DNA from: an uncultured Alphaproteobacteria bacterium
GTDB lineage: Bacteria > Pseudomonadota > Alphaproteobacteria > Acetobacterales > Acetobacteraceae
Assembly: GCA_963789495.1 (NCBI GenBank)
Contig: CAWBLP010000031.1
Span: forward strand, 118,679 to 182,678
Direction: 5' to 3'
DNA: 64,000 bases
Position numbers and translations under genes: made by a program. This document shows positions 851 through 60,491 of this stretch, piece after piece. Positions within the stretch are counted from its first letter, which is position 1. Each line of letters starts with the position of its first letter. The notes below the pieces were generated by a model that saw only the letters and a program-made list of their open reading frames with translations, was not told the origin of the DNA and did no database searches.

Positions 851-3025
851 TCATCCGCTACGTCCGGTGCGCAGCATCTCGCTCACGTCCTGGGCGCTGC
901 GGCGTTCCACCATATGCGGATCGCCGCGTTGCACCGCGAAATGCGTCTCGCCCTGCTCGCGCCAGAACCGGATGTCGAAATGCCGCCGCCCGAGGCGCAG
1001 ATCCAGCAAGGTGATATCCGGCAGCCATTCGGGCAGCGCGGGATCGACATAGATCCGTTCGCGCGGTGCATCCAGGCTGATCCCCAGCATCGCCTGCAGC
1101 AACGCGAACGCCGATCCGGCCGCCCAGGCCTGCGGCACATTGGCGCCGAGATATTGCACCGGGAACCCGCCGGCATGGCGCTCGATGCCCGCGTACAGTT
1201 CCGGCAACTGGTTCAGCAGGAAATGGCTGGCGGCCTCGTTGATGCCATGGGCGATCTGCGCGACCTGCTCGGTGAAACCGTATCGCTTGAAACCAAGCAC
1301 GATCAGGCTGTTGTCGTGCGGCCAGACCGAACCGTTCTGATAGGAATAGGGATTATACGCGGCATGCTGGCTCGACAGCGTGCGAATCCCCCAGCCGCTG
1401 TTCATGTCCGGCGCCATCAGCCGCGCCACCACCCGGGCGGCGCGGTCCGCCGGGACCAGCCCGGACCACAGCAGATGGCCGGGATTCGAAGCCACCGTCA
1501 GCACCTTCCGCTTCGCCCCATCCAGCATATAGGCGTAAAACCCGCTCGCTTCGTCCCAGAACACCTCATTGAAGCGCCGGAACAGCGTGGCCGCCTTGTC
1601 CCGCAACGCGACCGCACGTTCGGCATCGCCCAGTGCCTCGAACACCTCCGCCATGCGCAGCCAGGCGTCGTAGACATAGCCTTGCAGTTCGCACAAAGCC
1701 TTGGGCCCGACCACCGGCGTTCCGTCCGGATTGACCATGGAATCCTGGGCATCCTTCCAGGCCATGTTCTCGTAGCCGACGGGCGAGCGGGTCTGGTACT
1801 CCTGAAACCCGTCACCGTCGCGATCGCCGTGCTGATCGATCCAGTCCAGCGCCGCCTCGGCATGCGCGCGGTGGCGTTCCAGTAATGCCTTGTCGCCGGT
1901 GGCACGCCAGGCGGCGTGCAGCGTGATCAGGAACAGCGGTGTGGCATCGGCCGTGCCGTAATACGGCGTATGCGGAATCAGCTTGAAATGCGCCAGCTCG
2001 CCATAGCGCAGCTCATGCATGATCTTGCCGGGTTCAGCATCGCGATAGTCGTCGCGCTCCGTCGCCTGCAACTGGCCCAGCACGTCCAGTGAACCGCGGG
2101 CAAATTCCGGATAGACCAGGATGTTCTGTAACGATACGATCAGAGAATCGCGACCGAACAACGCCATGAACCAGGGCAGGCCGGCCGCCGGAACAAACAC
2201 CATATGGTCGGTGCCCTCCAGCGGCAGGCGCAAGGCCGCCATGTCCTCGATCGACTGGCAGTAGAATCGGAAAAATTCTTCGTTGCTGCAACGAACCTTC
2301 AGCACCGTGCGTTGCCAGTCGATCCGCTCCAGCGCGTGACTGGTGCGGTCCATATGATGTGAGCACTCGGGGCTGGCGCGATAAATCCGCTCGCCATCGG
2401 TCAGATGATAGAGCAGGCAGCAATGCCAGGACTCGCCGGGCGCGATGCTGACGTCGAAACTCAGCCGACCATTGGCATGGACGGCGCGTGGATCGCCCTT
2501 CCCAACCTCGATCCTGACCGCGCGGAGGAAGTCCCGATTGCGATAGGTCGTGGTCAGCGTCTGGCGCGTTTCGGACCAGTCGGTGCGGATATGGCCGCGC
2601 CGGACGTTGCGACGCGACTTCACATCGAACACATCGGCGAAGTCGGACCGGAGCGCGATCTCCAGATTGAACCGAACCGGCTTTTGGCCATGGTTGGTGA
2701 TATCGAGATCCTCGTGCAGCCCGTCGTTGATCGCGCGGCCCAGCACGAAGGCCAGCGTGTGTGCCGGGACGACGCCATCCTCCGTCAGGAAGCTGCGATT
2801 GGTCAGGAACAGACGCGCAACGTCGTAGATGACCGCTCCACCGCTCATCAGTTCCCACGGTTCGCCGTTGGCGTACACGGCCCAGGCACTGATCAGGCGC
2901 GTGTCGAAGAAATACAGGCCCTTGTCCGATGGCGAGATGATCTGCCCGTCGGGTTCGGTGACGAGCACGGTCATCGCGTGGTGAATGGCGATCTGCGGCG
3001 GGCCGACCTGGACTTTGAACGGCAT
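851..3025 (-). CDS. Amylo-alpha-1,6-glucosidase / glycogen-debranching-enzyme-like protein
   Basis: 724-aa ORF. N-terminal GLYFFDTRLIS resembles the bacterial GDE N-domain. WFMALFGRDSLI and YQNGSVWPHDN are six-hairpin glycosidase signatures. Confidence 0.8.
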   Translation of the reverse strand: MPFKVQVGPPQIAIHHAMTVLVTEPDGQIISPSDKGLYFFDTRLISAWAVYANGEPWELMSGGAVIYDVARLFLTNRSFLTEDGVVPAHTLAFVLGRAINDGLHEDLDITNHGQKPVRFNLEIALRSDFADVFDVKSRRNVRRGHIRTDWSETRQTLTTTYRNRDFLRAVRIEVGKGDPRAVHANGRLSFDVSIAPGESWHCCLLYHLTDGERIYRASPECSHHMDRTSHALERIDWQRTVLKVRCSNEEFFRFYCQSIEDMAALRLPLEGTDHMVFVPAAGLPWFMALFGRDSLIVSLQNILVYPEFARGSLDVLGQLQATERDDYRDAEPGKIMHELRYGELAHFKLIPHTPYYGTADATPLFLITLHAAWRATGDKALLERHRAHAEAALDWIDQHGDRDGDGFQEYQTRSPVGYENMAWKDAQDSMVNPDGTPVVGPKALCELQGYVYDAWLRMAEVFEALGDAERAVALRDKAATLFRRFNEVFWDEASGFYAYMLDGAKRKVLTVASNPGHLLWSGLVPADRAARVVARLMAPDMNSGWGIRTLSSQHAAYNPYSYQNGSVWPHDNSLIVLGFKRYGFTEQVAQIAHGINEAASHFLLNQLPELYAGIERHAGGFPVQYLGANVPQAWAAGSAFALLQAMLGISLDAPRERIYVDPALPEWLPDITLLDLRLGRRHFDIRFWREQGETHFAVQRGDPHMVERRSAQDVSEMLRTGRSG

Positions 3026-3202
3026 GGCGCCGGTTCTCCTGCGGTGTGAGACGGAAGCATGGTGCCGAGGCTGCTATAGCCTTGCTGGCGGTCGGAAATC
3101 ACGCGTCACTCTGCGAGCGGTCGGCCGCGGTCTGTCGTCCAGGTTTGCCGCCGACGCCGATTCCGGAGATAGTACGGCCAAACGGCCCAGGAGAGCGTCC
3201 CA

Positions 3203-4039
3203 ATGCGCTACGAGACCATTTCGGTGAAGGCGAGCACGCCGACGATCGGCGCAGAAGTCGCGGGTATCGATCTGGGAAAACCACTGGGAAACCAGCAGTT
3301 CCAGGAAGTGCACGATGCGTTGATGGCGCACCAGGTGCTGTTCTTCCGCGACCAGAAGCTCAGCTTCGACCAGCACAAGGCGTTCGGCCGGCTGTTTGGC
3401 GAACTGCACGTGCATCCCAATACCAAGGGACCGGAGGGTCATCCGGAGATCCTGCCGATCCATGCCGATGCGAATTCCAAGCGCATCTCGGGCGAGCGCT
3501 GGCATTCCGACGTATCCTGCGATCCGGAGCCGCCGATGGGCTCCATCCTCAACCTGAAGACGATCCCGCCGGTCGGCGGCGACACGCTGTTTGCTTCGAT
3601 GTACGCCGCGTATGACGCGCTGTCGGCACCGATGAAGAAGTTCCTGTCCGGTCTGATCGCGATTCATGACGGTGCACCGAACTATATGCGCACCAACCGG
3701 TTGATCGGCGACACGACGCAGAAGACCTTTCCGACCGCGGAGCATCCGGTGATCCGCACCCATCCGGTGACGGGCAAGCAGGCGATCTTCGTCAACCCGG
3801 TGTTCACGGTCGCCCTCAAGGATATGCCGGAGGCGGAAAGCAAGGCGATCCTGGAATTCCTGTATGAGCATTGCGGCCGGCCGCACTGGCAGGTGCGGTT
3901 CCGCTGGGAGGCTGACAGCGTCGCGTTCTGGGATAATCGCTGCGTGCAGCACATCGCGATGTGGGATTACTTCCCGCAGGTGCGCTCCGGCTATCGCGTG
4001 ACGGTGAAGGGGGACCGGCCGTTCCATCGGCCGAACTGA
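3203..4039 (+). CDS. tauD: Taurine dioxygenase (Fe(II)/2-oxoglutarate dependent, TauD/TfdA family)
   Basis: 278 aa, recalled as colinear with E. coli TauD: TPTIGAEVAGIDL, FGELHVHP, WHSDVSCDPEPP (HxD), HPVTGKQAIFVN, FWDNRCVQH. Confidence 0.85.
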   Translation: MRYETISVKASTPTIGAEVAGIDLGKPLGNQQFQEVHDALMAHQVLFFRDQKLSFDQHKAFGRLFGELHVHPNTKGPEGHPEILPIHADANSKRISGERWHSDVSCDPEPPMGSILNLKTIPPVGGDTLFASMYAAYDALSAPMKKFLSGLIAIHDGAPNYMRTNRLIGDTTQKTFPTAEHPVIRTHPVTGKQAIFVNPVFTVALKDMPEAESKAILEFLYEHCGRPHWQVRFRWEADSVAFWDNRCVQHIAMWDYFPQVRSGYRVTVKGDRPFHRPN

Positions 4040-56196: not shown

Positions 56197-57030
56197 TCAC
56201 GGCGGTTTCGAAGGTGGTTGAATTACATTCCCTTCGCGGGTGACGACCGAGCCGGCCTGAAAATTCCTATTACCCCAGTCGCGTTCCCACGGCTGGCAGG
56301 TTTGCGAACGATCTTTGCAGGGCGGCGCGGTGACAAGTAATTTGTTTATCTGCGTAGCTTTGTGGGGGGCTCTCCGAATTGCTTCCCCGCCAACCAATGC
56401 GCCGCCAATGAACAATGCGACGCTGGCAAGGCACAAGACAATCGCTACATATCGCTCCCAAATCCACCACAAGCGCAATCGTGCGGCACGTCGGCGGGCT
56501 ACCTTCGCGTGCTTGGCCATTTCCTGAGCCTGTGGCGGGAAATATTTGCCCTGAATGGTGCGAGCGGTGTGAACAGCATTAGAATAGAAGTAATCTGCCT
56601 TATGAGCAAGCGCGAAAAATGCACAAATACTCGCGACGCTCGCGCTGCAAAGGCCACCCACAAACAGCCCGGCAGTAAGGAGGAGAAGGGAGTGTAATCT
56701 TTCTGCATCAATATTGAACAGCGCAACGACGGCCGGAATGGCGATGATGCCACCACCGTTGAGGATGAACCCGGACTTGATGACCATTTGAGCAAGCGCT
56801 ACTGCCGAGCTTTCACCCAATTTGGCCGCTTCCAAATCCGCCGCCATCTCGGTTTCACGTTCTTCCCGATACTCCTTGCGAACGTCGCGGTGCTCGATCC
56901 ATTGGGGAGAAATTAGCGGAGGGCATTGCCCCGGCTGGCCTGGTACCGGCTGGGGCTGCTGTTGCCCTTGAGTCCACCGCGCCGATATTCGCCATGTGGT
57001 CGGATGCGATGGGCCTGGGTCGTTCATATC
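56197..57030 (-). CDS. Membrane protein with Gln/Pro-rich N-terminus (hypothetical)
   Basis: Start taken at ATG 57030, which overlaps the stop of the upstream 44-codon ORF (ATGA); alternatives are 56847 or 57153. TM segments IIAIPAVVALF, LLLLTAGLFVGGLCSASVASICAFFAL, YVAIVLCLASVALFIGGALV. Confidence 0.55.
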   Translation of the reverse strand, partial: DMNDPGPSHPTTWRISARWTQGQQQPQPVPGQPGQCPPLISPQWIEHRDVRKEYREERETEMAADLEAAKLGESSAVALAQMVIKSGFILNGGGIIAIPAVVALFNIDAERLHSLLLLTAGLFVGGLCSASVASICAFFALAHKADYFYSNAVHTARTIQGKYFPPQAQEMAKHAKVARRRAARLRLWWIWERYVAIVLCLASVALFIGGALVGGEAIRRAPHKATQINKLLVTAPPCKDRSQTCQPWERDWGNRNFQAGSVVTREGNVIQPPSKPP

Positions 57031-57158
57031 GCCATCCGCGGAATCGTGCTGTTGTGGACGTTGTAGCTCCGCGCAATTTTCCGCACCGTCTCGCCGCTGT
57101 CTTTCGGCCAGATCGTCTCGACGCATCGACGTCGAGCGGCCTTCAGCTTGCACCCCAT
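57024..57158 (-). CDS. 44-codon HTH ORF resembling a resolvase/invertase C-terminal DNA-binding domain
   Basis: Hand translation MGCKLKAARRRCVETIWPKDSGETVRKIARSYNVHNSTIPRMAI. Below the ORF-track size cutoff. Starts 2 nt after the stop of the preceding ORF. Confidence 0.4.
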   Translation of the reverse strand: MGCKLKAARRRCVETIWPKDSGETVRKIARSYNVHNSTIPRMAI

Positions 57159-57160
57159 CT

Positions 57161-57397
57161 TCACGCCTCGCGCGAGGGTGTGTTCTCGCCCCTCTCCGGT
57201 GCGATGCCGTGGCGTCCGCCCATACGGATGGTGGCTAGCTTCCGCAGCTCCGCAATAGCTTCCTTCGCTGCTCGTTTGGCGTCTGTGCGATTCAACCCAC
57301 GTTCGCGCATTTGAACCGCCGTGTATCGAGAATAGAGTCTATCCCAGAATCTTCCGCCGAATCCGGTATCAGGCACTTCCAAAATGACCTTGGGCAC
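57161..57397 (-). CDS. Hypothetical small protein
   Basis: 78-aa ORF (MPKVILEVPDTGFGGRFWDRLYSRYTAVQMRERGLNRTDAKRAAKEAIAELRK...) with normal amino-acid composition in the low-GC island. No family recognised. Confidence 0.45.
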   Translation of the reverse strand: MPKVILEVPDTGFGGRFWDRLYSRYTAVQMRERGLNRTDAKRAAKEAIAELRKLATIRMGGRHGIAPERGENTPSREA

Positions 57398-57475
57398 ATT
57401 AGACCCGTTGCGAAAGTCGGCTCCCCGGTCACCGGTGTCCGGCGCGTTCTCACCGGCGGCGTTTCCCTCACCTGA

Positions 57476-58381
57476 TCAGAACGGTCCGAACCCAGCTTGC
57501 AGGTTCACCAGTCCCGCGATGATGGAGATTTTGGTGTGATGCGTCCCAAGTGGGTTGCGAAACCGCTCAGCAGCGATCCTGAACCGCTTCGTTCGTCCGA
57601 TCCGGTGCTCAACCCTGACACGGAATCCACTCAGTCCACGGTTATATGCCTTCTCCTCATCAGTGAGTTTCCCGTTCTTTGGCTTCTTGTATGGACATTC
57701 CAGGTTCCGATGTTCCTTGTCGTACCCCTGGTACGCACTGTCCGCGTAGAGCCGTGCCTTCCTCGGCAGCTTTGGTCCATTGCGACGGATCGCCAGGTCA
57801 TGGTGACTGCCGGGGTGAGAGGGCGAGGCGCTGACGATACGACGATTCCGGGTAACGATGTATTCGGTCTTCACCGTATGGCGCTTCTTCTTGCCGGAGT
57901 AATGCTCTCGCTGTTTGGCGTCCGTGTCAGGACGCTGGATCGGCTGCTCGGTGCAATCGACGATCAGGGCCTCGGCCTCGTTCCGACTGATTTTGGGCTT
58001 CCGTCCAACCCCGATCAGCGGCCGGGCGAGCTTTTCGATCCGCTGGATCGCTCGGCAGATCGCGCTTTTGTTGACGTTGTAGAAGAAGCCCAGGAACTCC
58101 TGGGTGATGTAGCAACGATAATAGATCAGCATGATCAAAAGATGATCTTCCAAACCACCGACGTCCCAGGGGCGGCCGGATTTGGCCTTGTGCAGCTGAG
58201 CTTTCTCCCAGGGGTCCGCGAGTTGCTTCAGCATTTTGTCGAACGTGGCGACGCTGACCCCGGTCAGGCGGACGAAGCTCGTGTTGGCGCGCAACCGGGC
58301 AGCGGAGAACGGACGGGACATCGGGCCGGTACCTTCATGAAGAAGGTTCTCGACGAATCGAATCGTCCCGTGACCTGTCAA
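57476..58381 (-). CDS. Harbinger/PIF-like DDE_Tnp_4 transposase with N-terminal HTH_Tnp_4
   Basis: 301 aa (probably from M21 at 58321). FVRLTGVSVATFDKMLKQL HTH, LIVDCTEQPIQRP (first Asp), GSHHDLAI (second Asp), LYADSAYQG, VRVEHRIGRTKRFRI (Glu). Confidence 0.85.
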   Translation of the reverse strand: MTGHGTIRFVENLLHEGTGPMSRPFSAARLRANTSFVRLTGVSVATFDKMLKQLADPWEKAQLHKAKSGRPWDVGGLEDHLLIMLIYYRCYITQEFLGFFYNVNKSAICRAIQRIEKLARPLIGVGRKPKISRNEAEALIVDCTEQPIQRPDTDAKQREHYSGKKKRHTVKTEYIVTRNRRIVSASPSHPGSHHDLAIRRNGPKLPRKARLYADSAYQGYDKEHRNLECPYKKPKNGKLTDEEKAYNRGLSGFRVRVEHRIGRTKRFRIAAERFRNPLGTHHTKISIIAGLVNLQAGFGPF

Positions 58382-58402
58382 GCTCGGCCGCGCCGGCTCA
58401 GC

Positions 58403-58855
58403 TCACCGACGGAGAGCCGCTAACGTACTCATTTTCGCAACGGGTCTATTCACATCCTGCTTCAAGCGATCACCCTCGCGTCCGGCCTGAATGTAAAGAG
58501 CCTTGGTGGCGAGTATCTGTTCGACAAGAACCCCGTGATTCGTCTTAAGATCAAACTCGACGATAATAACCAATTCGGCAGGACGTAAGAACGACAGGAT
58601 GAGCGCAACGGTATTGTCGTGACTGATGAGCTGACCCCATTGGCACTTCACATCTCCTGCGTTGACGTATTGATGGACGAGAAGATACTCCTCGAAGTCT
58701 GGTCGGCTGCTAGTGTCAAGGATCACCAAGGGAATCAGCCGCCCTTCGCCCAGACCAACGGTAGCGATGGCACCGTCTGCAACAATGCGAAGGGCATCCT
58801 TTTCACGCTCTTGGGTCACCTGGATGAATCCAGTGCGGAATTGGCTAAACAGCAT
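58403..58855 (-). CDS. Hypothetical protein C of the three-gene cassette (soluble, about 150 aa)
   Basis: ATG 58855 overlaps the stop of gene B by 11 nt (earlier in-frame ATGs exist at 58882/58885). Balanced composition; no family recognised. Confidence 0.6.
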   Translation of the reverse strand: MLFSQFRTGFIQVTQEREKDALRIVADGAIATVGLGEGRLIPLVILDTSSRPDFEEYLLVHQYVNAGDVKCQWGQLISHDNTVALILSFLRPAELVIIVEFDLKTNHGVLVEQILATKALYIQAGREGDRLKQDVNRPVAKMSTLAALRR

Positions 58856-59411
58856 GGCGCTTCTCAGTGACCACGAGAGCATCAACGCTCGTCTCGGCTT
58901 GATGACTGTCCGTCAGAACAATCTGATAGCCATCGATCCTGCGTCCGCCGAGAAAGCTGGGTTTAAGGACGAAATCACACCAGCCGGATGCGGTATCGTG
59001 CGCCGCAATTCGGAACGGTGCTATCAGCCGACGATGATCGCTTTTCGGGACACAGAAGCCAACTGACGGCGGCAACTTTACCGTCATCGGTACATCGCCG
59101 TCGATGAGGTAGCGCAGATGCATTTCAATCTGCGCTATCGCATTGTCCGAATTCGTCGGATTTCCTACCGACAACGAAAAAGAATAGACGCGATCACCTG
59201 CGGTCAAGCTTTCAAAGTGGCTGTCCAACAACCTCGGAACAAGCCGAGGCTGTTTCCGCTGTTCCTGTTGTTCCGATAGTCGCAGTGCGCGTGAGGATAC
59301 CCTGAAACTCCCGACAGCAACGACAAGGGCGGCGACTGCCGTGACGGCAACCACAATGTCCGTCCAATCTTTGGCTAACATTTTTAAGATGGCTTGGGCT
59401 TCTTCGATCAT
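58845..59411 (-). CDS. Hypothetical protein B of the cassette (N-terminal TM anchor + beta-rich domain)
   Basis: ATG 59411 overlaps the TGA of gene A (ATGA). TM DIVVAVTAVAALVVAVGSF, then a 140-aa domain of alternating hydrophobic pattern. Confidence 0.65.
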   Translation of the reverse strand: MIEEAQAILKMLAKDWTDIVVAVTAVAALVVAVGSFRVSSRALRLSEQQEQRKQPRLVPRLLDSHFESLTAGDRVYSFSLSVGNPTNSDNAIAQIEMHLRYLIDGDVPMTVKLPPSVGFCVPKSDHRRLIAPFRIAAHDTASGWCDFVLKPSFLGGRRIDGYQIVLTDSHQAETSVDALVVTEKRHAV

Positions 59412-60109
59412 TCGCAAGCTTCGACATCGCGCGGATGTGGCAGTATCAGCCCATGCTTTGCCTGATATCCAGCCTTTGCCTCGATAAGATCACCCACCCA
59501 GTTATCGATGCCCTCAAGGTAATCTGCCAGCTTTTCTAACGCGCTCGACAACTCCCGAATGTCGATGCTGGTTAGGCCAGAGCACAACGATGGTATGCTT
59601 CTTCTAGTCGTTGGGTAACGGAAATGCTGACCGTTAGGGTCATGCTCATGCATCTGCCGGATATAGGAGTTGATGCCTTCAAGGTCATCCATAGGGAAAA
59701 CTGAATTGTCAGCAATTTTGGAAACTGCGTTGAGTAGCGGTCTTGCCAACGTCCACAATTCTGACAAATCGTGTCGAGTTAGCGGATCGCTGCCTTTGCC
59801 GGTTACTGCCTCATCGAGCAGGCTATGGGCACCCCCGATAATCGATTTTAATGCAAGCTCAATGTGGTGCCGATACAAATAGATTATTGGGCAGAACAGA
59901 AAGTCCTGCTCACTCCCCTTATCACAGAGATACTCGACGAGATGGAGCGCCGCCCGGCGGTAACCATCTTGGTAGATGATGCCATCGAAGCCGGATGCGG
60001 CACAGGCCTTAGCCTGCCAGTCAATTCCCGGCCCAAACAAGACATCTGATTTTCGGGGTGGGAGTGACGTTCCAACGGCCGATTCCTCGTCATCCGACAT
60101 ATCAGGCAC
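59408..60109 (-). CDS. Hypothetical protein A of the cassette (all-helical, HEPN-like features)
   Basis: 233 aa (GTG 60109 or ATG 60100). YRHHIELALKSII...TRHDLSELWTLARPLL resembles the HEPN helix pair. One Rx4H string, RQMHEH, is present. Confidence 0.65.
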   Translation of the reverse strand: MPDMSDDEESAVGTSLPPRKSDVLFGPGIDWQAKACAASGFDGIIYQDGYRRAALHLVEYLCDKGSEQDFLFCPIIYLYRHHIELALKSIIGGAHSLLDEAVTGKGSDPLTRHDLSELWTLARPLLNAVSKIADNSVFPMDDLEGINSYIRQMHEHDPNGQHFRYPTTRRSIPSLCSGLTSIDIRELSSALEKLADYLEGIDNWVGDLIEAKAGYQAKHGLILPHPRDVEACE

Positions 60110-60194
60110 CGAATTTGGAAATCATAGCCACGCCGAAGTTACAGGGACGAACAATCTGCGTCGGTAGTTTCCCCTCTCAATTATCGCTTCGAGG

Positions 60195-60491
60195 TCAGAA
60201 GGCATAGATCGCATCAGTCGTAGCGGCTGGCTTCACGTAAGGCTTGGGCCCTTCCCGGTTCACGACATCGACCGGATCGTCGAAGAGCGTTGCGATGTAT
60301 TCCTTCAACCCGACATACTCGTACACACCGATCCGAGCCGCAGGGTCGATCTCGATCATGATATCGGTGTCGCTGTCGGGACGCGCATCGCCCCGCGCGC
60401 GCGAGCCAAACAGCGCCGCATGTGCCACGCCGCGGGCTTTCAGCGCCGCCTCGTTCTCCCGCAGCCGGGCGATGATCTCCTGCCTGTCCAT
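60195..60491 (-). CDS. MNT-type nucleotidyltransferase (Pol-beta superfamily; antitoxin-type of HEPN/MNT modules)
   Basis: 99 aa from ATG 60491. LFGSRARGDARPDSDTDIMIEI is the GSx(n)DxD NTase motif. Confidence 0.85.
   Translation of the reverse strand: MDRQEIIARLRENEAALKARGVAHAALFGSRARGDARPDSDTDIMIEIDPAARIGVYEYVGLKEYIATLFDDPVDVVNREGPKPYVKPAATTDAIYAF

What the first reader, a model, noticed from the sequence alone, without database searches (positions are those of the whole stretch)
60100..60491. Orphan MNT nucleotidyltransferase lacking the usual DUF86/HEPN partner, followed instead by the HEPN-like gene A
MNT-type proteins with the GSxxxG...DxD motif, here LFGSRARGDARPDSDTD, normally sit immediately upstream of a 110-140-aa HEPN toxin, often with overlapping codons (type VII HepT/MntA). 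Here the next gene on the same strand is 85 nt away, 233 aa long, and lower in GC than the MNT gene. Either the canonical HEPN was replaced by an incoming cassette, or gene A is a divergent, enlarged HEPN regulated by the MNT. The second case would make a four-gene MNT-A-B-C system.
Basis: inference. Interest (0 to 1): 0.6.

Follow-up and report, generated by a model that had tools for sequence, protein, structure and literature searches.

The report
Orphaned MntA antitoxin beside unrelated cassette
The small nucleotidyltransferase gene is the surviving antitoxin half of a common two-gene toxin-antitoxin pair whose toxin gene was deleted, and the three genes that now follow it are an unrelated mobile cassette, so this is ordinary decay of a toxin-antitoxin locus and not a new four-gene system.

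Summary
On the minus strand, 60195-60491 encodes an intact 98-aa MNT with an exact GSX10DXD motif and no DUF86/HEPN partner. The next gene (A) starts 85-94 nt downstream and has much lower GC.

The four-gene reading does not hold. Of four MNT relatives (64-82% aa identity; one is frameshifted), three carry hepT (one with a premature stop), starting at the same ATG inside the MNT stop region. The window keeps only about 8 hepT codons (60205-60182) before homology ends.

Elsewhere A-B-C is a cassette of its own: Resolvase-A-B-C, Resolvase-Mrr-A-B-C, Abi_C-A-B-C. B-C also occurs without A. In 105 A-family loci (635 kb), an MNT model found three MNTs. All three have their own DUF86 hepT, and none is paired with A.

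Gene C is split by a 1047-bp multicopy IS with a 3-bp target duplication. The 78-aa ORF at 57161-57397 is its C-terminus.

Gene A is probably a distant, enlarged PF05168-like HEPN. The evidence is weak but consistent across profile, motif-order and fold comparisons. It lacks Rx4-6H.

Verdict: a degraded type VII TA locus next to a mobile cassette.

The parts
60195..60491 (-). mntA: intact 98-aa MNT nucleotidyltransferase (type VII antitoxin type) with a GS-X10-DXD motif
   Evidence: Pfam PF01909 4.6e-12; PADLOC PDC-S09 1.5e-19; NCBIfam MntA 43.1 bits, below cut-off. 82% aa identity to full-length homologues in G018 and G036. All invariant residues present: G29 S30 D41 D43 E47 D75.
60182..60205 (-). 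hepT remnant: start codon inside the mntA stop region (ATGCCTTCTGA) plus about 8 codons (MPSDLEAI). The frame then runs 19 unrelated codons to a stop.
   Evidence: Alignment A1. Relatives begin hepT at the same ATG (MPSDVDVA, MPSEVEAT, MRSDREAI). The 13 nt after the mntA stop match G003 and G026 at 9/13 each; only 0.15% of 13-mers in the island match as well. Homology ends at about 60182.
60113..60175 (-). Possible decayed 3' end of a serine-resolvase gene directly upstream of A (..IVRPCNFGVAMISKFGA*)
   Evidence: Positional match to L014 and L055, where the resolvase stop lies 1-2 nt before the next gene (..IARSYNVHNSTISRLGA*). About 30 of 41 nt are identical to L014 near the A start. Blastx E is only 0.035-0.24, so this is weak and an inference.
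59408..60100 (-). Gene A (230 aa; alternative GTG start at 60109): all-helical, HEPN-like protein without an Rx4-6H motif
   Evidence: No direct family hit. 87 close homologues and 5313 representative clusters. AF2 model pLDDT 91.8. The highest-probability Foldseek hits are HEPN proteins, but E is about 0.5. 15 of 103 relatives weakly hit PF05168. hhalign E 9e-4, probability 23%.
58845..59411 (-). Gene B (188 aa): one apparent N-terminal hydrophobic (membrane-type) helix, read from the sequence. Its ATG overlaps the A stop (ATGA).
   Evidence: Sequence. 40 homologues, many on the same contigs as A and C homologues. No family or PDB hit.
58451..58855 (-). Gene C, 5' part (135 codons). Its start overlaps the B stop.
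   Evidence: Homologues are 195-218 aa and the window copy covers only about 87% of the query. Collinear with L055-L058 up to the IS edge.
57401..58447 (.). 1047-bp IS (DDE_Tnp_4 transposase 57476-58381, minus strand) inserted in gene C. Terminal inverted repeats AGACCCGTTGCGAAA; 3-bp target duplication ATT at 57398-57400 and 58448-58450.
   Evidence: Pfam DDE_Tnp_4 1.9e-28. At least 20 near-identical copies in the genome define the ends. Ends and duplication read.
57161..57400 (-). Gene C, 3' part (the '78-aa ORF')
   Evidence..PKVILEVPDTGFGGRFWDRLYSRYT.. matches the C-termini of P0135, P0149 and P0145. Joining the flanks in silico gives a continuous 214-codon frame, DVN-VPKVIL, against DVNLPKVIL in homologues.
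57033..57209 (-). Serine-resolvase C-terminal (HTH) fragment downstream of C
   Evidence: tblastx 61% over 59 aa to the L055 resolvase and 51% to the L014 resolvase. Translation ..GEGREHTLARGVKMG..VRKIARSYNVHNSTIPRMAI*.

Best explanation
[quoted passage not shown] In the ancestral state, hepT started at the ATG buried in the last codons of mntA. By analogy with characterised systems, MntA neutralised the HepT RNase by oligo-AMPylating the Tyr of its RX4HXY motif. In this genome everything after hepT codon 8 was lost. The break is now joined to a lower-GC mobile cassette whose usual layout elsewhere is serine resolvase, then A, B and C; at most the last codons of the resolvase survive here. Gene A is a divergent, enlarged HEPN-like helical protein. 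It belongs to that cassette and not to the MNT. Later, a multicopy IS inserted cleanly into gene C, so the cassette itself is now disrupted. The MNT-A adjacency is therefore a scar of recombination in a mosaic island and not a functional coupling. MntA is either a neutral relic or is kept as a trans-acting anti-addiction antitoxin. Shown here: domain identities, the missing hepT, the comparative gene orders, the IS insertion and the lack of MNT-A pairing. Inferred: the order of events, the resolvase remnant, MntA activity and any function of A-B-C.
For: (1) MNT identity and intact catalytic motif.
(2) MNT relatives in G018 and G036 (82% aa identity) are followed by an intact DUF86 hepT that starts at the ATG overlapping the mntA stop. 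G003 has the same gene with one TAG nonsense codon.
(3) The window keeps that ATG and 8 codons, then diverges. The 13 nt after the stop match G003 and G026 at 9/13 each; 0.15% of island 13-mers do as well. There is no PF01934 hit on this contig.
(4) A-B-C recurs without any MNT: L014 Res-A-B-C (88% nt identity over 946 bp), L055 Res-Mrr-A-B-C, L057 and L075 Abi_C-A-B-C, L076, L125 and L127. B-C occurs without A in L056 and L058.
(5) An MNT HMM run over 105 A-family loci (635 kb) found 3 MNTs. Each has its own DUF86 gene (intact in L093, short in L110/L111) and none abuts A. The same HMM found an MNT just upstream of 12 of 16 PF05168 HEPN control loci.
(6) Different composition: GC3 is 77% for MNT and 55% for A.
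(7) The IS in C has a target duplication and at least 20 genomic copies.
Against: The hepT remnant is short. Only about 13 nt beyond the mntA stop carry independent signal, because the ATG itself is constrained by mntA coding. The resolvase remnant upstream of A is statistically weak. No close relative with the ancestral or empty site was found: the only congener is not syntenic. The order of events is therefore inferred. No terminator-like site lies between mntA and A, so co-transcription cannot be excluded. A resembles PF05168 HEPNs, which are the Class II partners of MNTs and carry a conserved Tyr (PMC7641770), so cross-regulation is not impossible.
Confidence: 0.8

Rival explanations
1. 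MNT-A-B-C is a genuine four-gene system. A is an enlarged HEPN toxin or effector that the MNT switches off by AMPylation.
For: A is HEPN-like. It carries a nearly invariant Tyr in an F-R-Y-P motif that aligns with the R-Y-P motif of PF05168 HEPNs. Class II HEPN/MNT toxins have a conserved Tyr and no RX4H (PMC7641770). There is no predicted terminator between mntA and A.
Against: None of 105 A-family loci has an MNT paired with A, although the same HMM readily finds MNTs next to true PF05168 HEPNs. This MNT's closest relatives pair with DUF86 hepT. A hepT stub lies between MNT and A. Composition differs sharply. The closest A-B-C copies have a resolvase, Mrr or Abi_C upstream instead.
Confidence: 0.04
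2. The MNT is a solo gene that never had a hepT at this site, for example a stand-alone nucleotidyltransferase acquired alone. The 8-codon similarity would then be chance or a by-product of mntA 3' conservation.
For: Independent signal for the remnant is only about 13 nt. hepT N-termini are poorly conserved even among relatives, at 1-8 of 13 nt. The NCBIfam MntA score is below the equivalog cut-off.
Against: All four related MNT loci contain hepT or its stub at exactly this position. The window's post-stop sequence is as similar to G003 and G026 as they are to each other, with an empirical tail of 0.15%. The in-frame peptide MPSD-EAI matches MPSDVDVA, MPSEVEAT and MRSDREAI.
Confidence: 0.08
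3. The orphan MntA is kept by selection as a trans-acting antitoxin, giving anti-addiction or cross-neutralisation against other HepT toxins in the cell or on incoming elements. This is compatible with the best explanation but adds a function.
For: The ORF and all catalytic residues are intact. The genome holds three other HepT-like loci, at least one apparently open: C4, with a 137-aa open frame.
Against: A 297-nt ORF can stay open by chance for a long time. Two of the other HepT loci are themselves broken. The window copy has Pro where all four close relatives have Leu (EGPKPY against EGLKPY).
Confidence: 0.15

Closest known systems
Class I type VII HepT/MntA (HEPN/MNT) toxin-antitoxin system, e.g. 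Shewanella oneidensis SO_3166/SO_3165 (Yao et al. 2020, PMC7641770)
   Same: A small (<150 aa) PF01909 MNT with an exact GSX10DXD motif. In relatives, the MNT lies upstream of, and overlaps, a DUF86 hepT that carries the RX4HXY motif (NIYRHEY / NIYRHQY).
   Different: The toxin gene is reduced here to about 8 codons, so the locus is no longer a TA pair. The NCBIfam MntA equivalog score is below cut-off (43 against 60 bits).
Class II HEPN/MNT modules (PF05168 HEPN + PF01909 MNT; PMC7641770)
   Same: Gene A shares the order of three PF05168 motifs: E-x3-K in a long helix, H-x-L-x2-L, and R-Y-P. Like Class II toxins, it lacks RX4H but keeps a conserved Tyr.
   Different: A is about twice the size (230 aa against about 120-145 aa). 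It fails the Pfam model itself, and its family is not paired with MNTs in any of 105 loci. Twelve of 16 true PF05168 loci had an MNT immediately upstream in the same test.
Orphan (solo) antitoxin genes left after toxin loss in decaying TA loci (general knowledge, not checked in papers here)
   Same: The antitoxin is intact and the toxin is deleted or inactivated. The same MNT clade shows a nonsense hepT (G003) and a second independent hepT replacement together with a frameshifted MNT (G026).
   Different: Nothing essential. This appears to be an ordinary case.

Membership tests
Type VII HepT/MntA TA system (Class I) | MNT protein with a PF01909 domain | tested here: met
   PF01909 46.6 bits against a cut-off of 21.
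Type VII HepT/MntA TA system (Class I) | GSX10DXD catalytic motif in the antitoxin (PMC7641770) | tested here: met
   G29-S30-RARGDARPDS-D41-T-D43, read from the sequence.
Type VII HepT/MntA TA system (Class I) | Neighbouring HEPN toxin (PF01934 or PF08780) with an RX4HXY motif | tested here: not met
   Only 8 hepT codons remain. No PF01934 hit on the contig. Relatives have the gene.
Type VII HepT/MntA TA system (Class I) | NCBIfam MntA_antitoxin equivalog score at or above the cut-off | tested here: not met
   43.1 bits against a cut-off of 60.
Type VII HepT/MntA TA system (Class I) | Antitoxin oligo-AMPylates its toxin and neutralises it | not testable with these tools
   Requires co-expression and mass spectrometry.
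HEPN superfamily (gene A) | HEPN-type helical bundle fold | tested here: inconclusive
   AF2 model pLDDT 91.8. Nearly every PDB hit with rmsd below 10 A is a HEPN protein: 2hsb (probability 0.72), 4nqf (0.69), HepT 7ae6/6m6u/7bxo/5yep and Csm6. However, E is 0.49 or higher and TM 0.48 or lower.
HEPN superfamily (gene A) | Rx4-6H RNase motif | tested here: not met
   No such motif among the conserved positions. The invariant residues are P71, R77, E81, H110, D154 and R161.
HEPN superfamily (gene A) | Profile match to a Pfam HEPN family | tested here: inconclusive
   The window protein has no hit. 15 of 103 family members hit PF05168, best E 5.3e-4. hhalign against 14 PF05168 domains gives E 9e-4 and probability 23%, with motif-consistent columns.
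Class II HEPN/MNT module (MNT + gene A) | Recurrent adjacency of the HEPN family to an MNT gene | tested here: not met
   None of 105 A-family loci has an MNT paired with A. All three loci with an MNT nearby carry its own DUF86 hepT. The positive control found 12 of 16.

The most novel reading that the evidence does not exclude
After losing hepT, the orphan Class I MntA was co-opted to control the newly adjacent HEPN-like protein A. It would act by read-through co-transcription and AMPylation of the conserved Tyr162 in A's F-R-Y-P motif. That would be a case of a TA antitoxin caught rewiring onto a foreign HEPN-type effector.
Probability: 0.04. Interest if true: 0.6.

Novelty: new member of a known kind. 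Interest (0 to 1): 0.22.

Why it matters
The result removes a false lead: there is no four-gene MNT-A-B-C system here, and the MNT should be annotated as an orphan MntA antitoxin next to a hepT stub.

It also gives a small, clean example of how type VII TA loci decay. In this one MNT clade, hepT was lost by replacement in two genomes and by a nonsense codon in a third.

The work sharpens the description of the neighbouring A-B-C cassette:
- Its true extent runs to 57161, because the 78-aa ORF is the end of gene C.
- It is interrupted by an IS.
- Its usual partners are serine resolvases, Mrr-like nucleases and Abi_C proteins.
- Gene A belongs to a large family (5313 representative clusters) with no Pfam model, and that family is probably a distant HEPN branch.

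That family, not the MNT, is the part worth further study.

Tried and rejected
- Direct family searches of A, B and C (Pfam, PADLOC, NCBIfam, PHROGs) gave nothing.
- Profile searches against PDB sequences with the A, B and C alignments gave no meaningful hit. The best for A was SIRV ORF131 at E 0.11.
- A Pfam scan of 32 C homologues gave nothing.
- The first AF2 model, from 50 close homologues, was mediocre (pLDDT 76.8), and its Foldseek output was dominated by unrelated long-helix proteins. A deeper 103-sequence alignment fixed the model.
- Foldseek against viral structures gave nothing.
- Synteny with the only congeneric genome was sought to find an empty or ancestral site. The flanks map to different contigs, so this was uninformative. 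The flanks of the MNT relatives are not syntenic either.
- A conserved neighbour of A was sought by clustering flanking ORFs. Across the wider family only mobile-element genes recur (integrase, resolvase), apart from one unnamed 254-aa protein found in three loci.
- The promoter and terminator scan was uninformative.

Full report
**Observation**

The region is read on the minus strand. ORF 60195-60491 encodes a 98-aa protein that matches:
- Pfam NTP_transf_2 (4.6e-12) and Polbeta (5e-10);
- PADLOC PDC-S09 (1.5e-19);
- the NCBIfam MntA antitoxin model, at 43.1 bits, below its 60-bit equivalog cut-off.

An alignment with relatives shows every invariant residue in place.

The next gene on the strand, A, runs 59408-60109 from a GTG, or from the ATG at 60100 used by all homologues. 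It has no family hit. GC is 62.6% for the MNT (GC3 77%) and 51.9% for A (GC3 55%).

**What happened to the HEPN partner**

A DNA search of 60 related genomes found four loci with this MNT clade.
- In G018 and G036 (82% aa identity), the MNT is followed by an intact DUF86 hepT with the NIYRHEY/NIYRHQY (RX4HXY) motif. Its ATG lies inside the last MNT codons (TATGCCTTCTGA).
- In G003 the same gene carries a single TAG at codon 51.
- In G026 the MNT has an 11-nt deletion, and hepT homology stops after about 13 codons, where unrelated DNA begins.

The window has the same ATG (60205-60203) and reads MPSDLEAI, against MPSDVDVA, MPSEVEAT and MRSDREAI in the relatives. After 60182 the similarity ends, and the frame closes after 27 codons in all.

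Only the roughly 13 nt after the MNT stop are independent evidence, because the ATG itself is constrained by MNT coding. Those 13 nt match G003 and G026 at 9/13 each. Only 0.15% of 13-mers in the island match as well. A PF01934 search of the whole genome finds no HepT on this contig.

I conclude, with moderate-to-good confidence, that hepT was present and was deleted or replaced beyond codon 8.

**What now follows the MNT**

A, B and C are translationally coupled: the A stop and B start share ATGA, and the B stop lies 11 nt inside C.

The closest A homologue (82% aa; 88% nt over 946 bp) sits in L014 in the order serine resolvase-A-B-C. Other contigs show:
- Resolvase-Mrr_cat-A-B-C (L055);
- Abi_C-A-B-C (L057, L075);
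- A-B-C (L076, L125, L127);
- B-C without A: Resolvase-WGR-B-C (L056) and Mrr_cat-B-C inside a defence island (L058).

Every A copy at 69% identity or more to the window's is followed by B, and by C where the contig extends far enough. More distant A genes stand alone or next to resolvases, integrases, Mrr-like, YaaC or RhuM genes.

The 60-70 nt between the hepT stub and A may be the decayed end of such a resolvase gene. The reading ..IVRPCNFGVAMISKFGA* stops 1-2 nt before A, as in L014. This is statistically weak.

**The cassette is itself broken**

C homologues are 195-218 aa. The window's C is interrupted at 58450/57401 by a 1047-bp IS that encodes a DDE_Tnp_4 transposase. The IS has terminal inverted repeats and a 3-bp ATT target duplication, and at least 20 near-identical copies are present in the genome.

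The 78-aa ORF at 57161-57397 is the C-terminus of C. Joining the flanks in silico gives one continuous 214-codon frame. A 59-aa resolvase C-terminal fragment follows C at 57209-57033.

**Do MNT and A ever go together?**

I built an HMM from the MNT clade and searched all six-frame ORFs of 105 A-family loci (635 kb), drawn from genomes, metagenomes and assemblies.
- Three loci had an MNT. L093 carries an MNT plus DUF86 hepT on the opposite strand, behind an IS. L110 and L111 carry an MNT plus a short DUF86 (RNRLIHGY) and then a membrane ORF before A.
- No locus has an MNT directly partnered with A.
- As a control, the same HMM found an MNT immediately upstream of 12 of 16 genuine PF05168 HEPN genes.

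**Is A a HEPN?**

Sequence searches with the window protein fail. The family is large, however: 5313 representative clusters at E 1e-3 or better. Three lines of evidence point the same way.
- When 103 diverse members were scanned one by one, 15 hit Pfam HEPN PF05168 (best E 5.3e-4). No other family was hit more than once.
- Family-wide invariant residues are P71, R77, E81, H110, D154 and R161. Y76, K85, W116, F160 and Y162 are nearly invariant. They form three motifs, YRHxxELxLK, HxLxxLW and FRYP, in the same order as the QQAAEKxLKA, sHDLxxL and aRYP motifs of 14 PF05168 domains taken from alphaproteobacterial genomes. hhalign pairs exactly those columns, with E 9e-4 but probability only 23%.
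- An AlphaFold model built on the deep alignment is confident (pLDDT 91.8, pTM 0.87). Its Foldseek hits with the highest probability and lowest rmsd are nearly all HEPN proteins: AF_0298 2hsb (0.72), 4nqf (0.69), HepT 7ae6/6m6u/7bxo/5yep and Csm6. No hit is significant, though (E 0.49 or higher, TM 0.48 or lower).

A has no Rx4-6H motif. I therefore rate A as probably a distant, enlarged PF05168-like HEPN. This is a resemblance in kind, not demonstrated membership. It may not be an RNase at all.

**Mechanism**

The most likely account is historical. A Class I HepT/MntA pair sat in a mosaic, lower-GC island. A recombination or deletion removed hepT from codon 9 onward, leaving the stub joined to a resolvase-borne A-B-C cassette. 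An IS later hit C.

MntA remains intact. It is either a neutral relic or a trans-acting antitoxin. The genome has three other HepT-like loci, two of them broken.

No terminator-like site separates mntA from A, so read-through transcription is possible.

**Comparison and novelty**

This is an orphaned type VII antitoxin, a new member of a known kind and not surprising to a specialist. The more interesting object is the A family and the modular [resolvase]-[Mrr / Abi_C / A / WGR]-B-C cassettes, which are the subject of a separate finding.

The one unexcluded novel reading is that the orphan MntA now AMPylates Tyr162 of A, since Class II HEPN toxins keep a conserved Tyr without RX4H (PMC7641770). 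I give that about 4%.

Noticed in passing
window 57161-58855: Gene C of the A-B-C cassette is split by a clean IS insertion (IS 57401-58447, 3-bp ATT duplication). The separately listed '78-aa ORF' 57161-57397 is the C-terminus of C, not an independent gene.
   Followed up: yes
window 57401-58447 and genome-wide: This DDE_Tnp_4 IS is present in at least 20 near-identical (98-100%) copies across the 35 contigs, so it is an active, recently expanding element.
   Followed up: partly
window 57033-57209: A 59-aa C-terminal HTH fragment of a serine resolvase lies directly after gene C. It overlaps the end of C in another frame. Elsewhere the resolvase lies upstream of the cassette, which suggests tandem or permuted cassettes.
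   Followed up: partly
L003 (G026) 1475-3261: A second, independent decay of the same TA clade. The MNT has an 11-nt deletion causing a frameshift. hepT homology stops after about 13 codons, and a 421-aa ORF of unknown function follows.
   Followed up: partly
L005 (G003) about 1100-1450: hepT is otherwise conserved but has a single in-frame TAG at codon 51. This could be a pseudogene or a sequencing error.
   Followed up: partly
own genome, contigs C8:286814-287050, C6:171088-171371, C4:472990-473112: Three other HepT-like (PF01934) loci. One has an internal TGA and one is split over two frames, so HepT genes seem to be decaying generally in this genome.
   Followed up: no
L055, L056, L057, L058, L075: The B-C pair is a conserved core with interchangeable upstream genes (Mrr_cat, WGR, Abi_C+A, A). 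It usually sits next to a serine resolvase; in L058 it lies inside a SIR2-HerA / type I R-M defence island.
   Followed up: partly
gene A family (alignment A3): The family has 5313 representative clusters at E 1e-3 or better and 2818 at 1e-10 or better, with no Pfam/NCBIfam/PADLOC model. The invariant residues are P71, R77, E81, H110, D154 and R161.
   Followed up: partly
window 56197-57153: The 318-aa ORF after the resolvase fragment has a Gln/Pro-rich N-terminus and several apparently hydrophobic C-terminal segments (read by eye from the translation). It has no family hit. It shares no homology with the genes that follow the resolvase in other cassettes.
   Followed up: no
window 60232-60234 (MNT residue 86): The window MNT has Pro where all four close relatives have Leu (EGPKPY against EGLKPY/EGLRPA/EGLKSY). 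This may be a sign of relaxed constraint after toxin loss.
   Followed up: no
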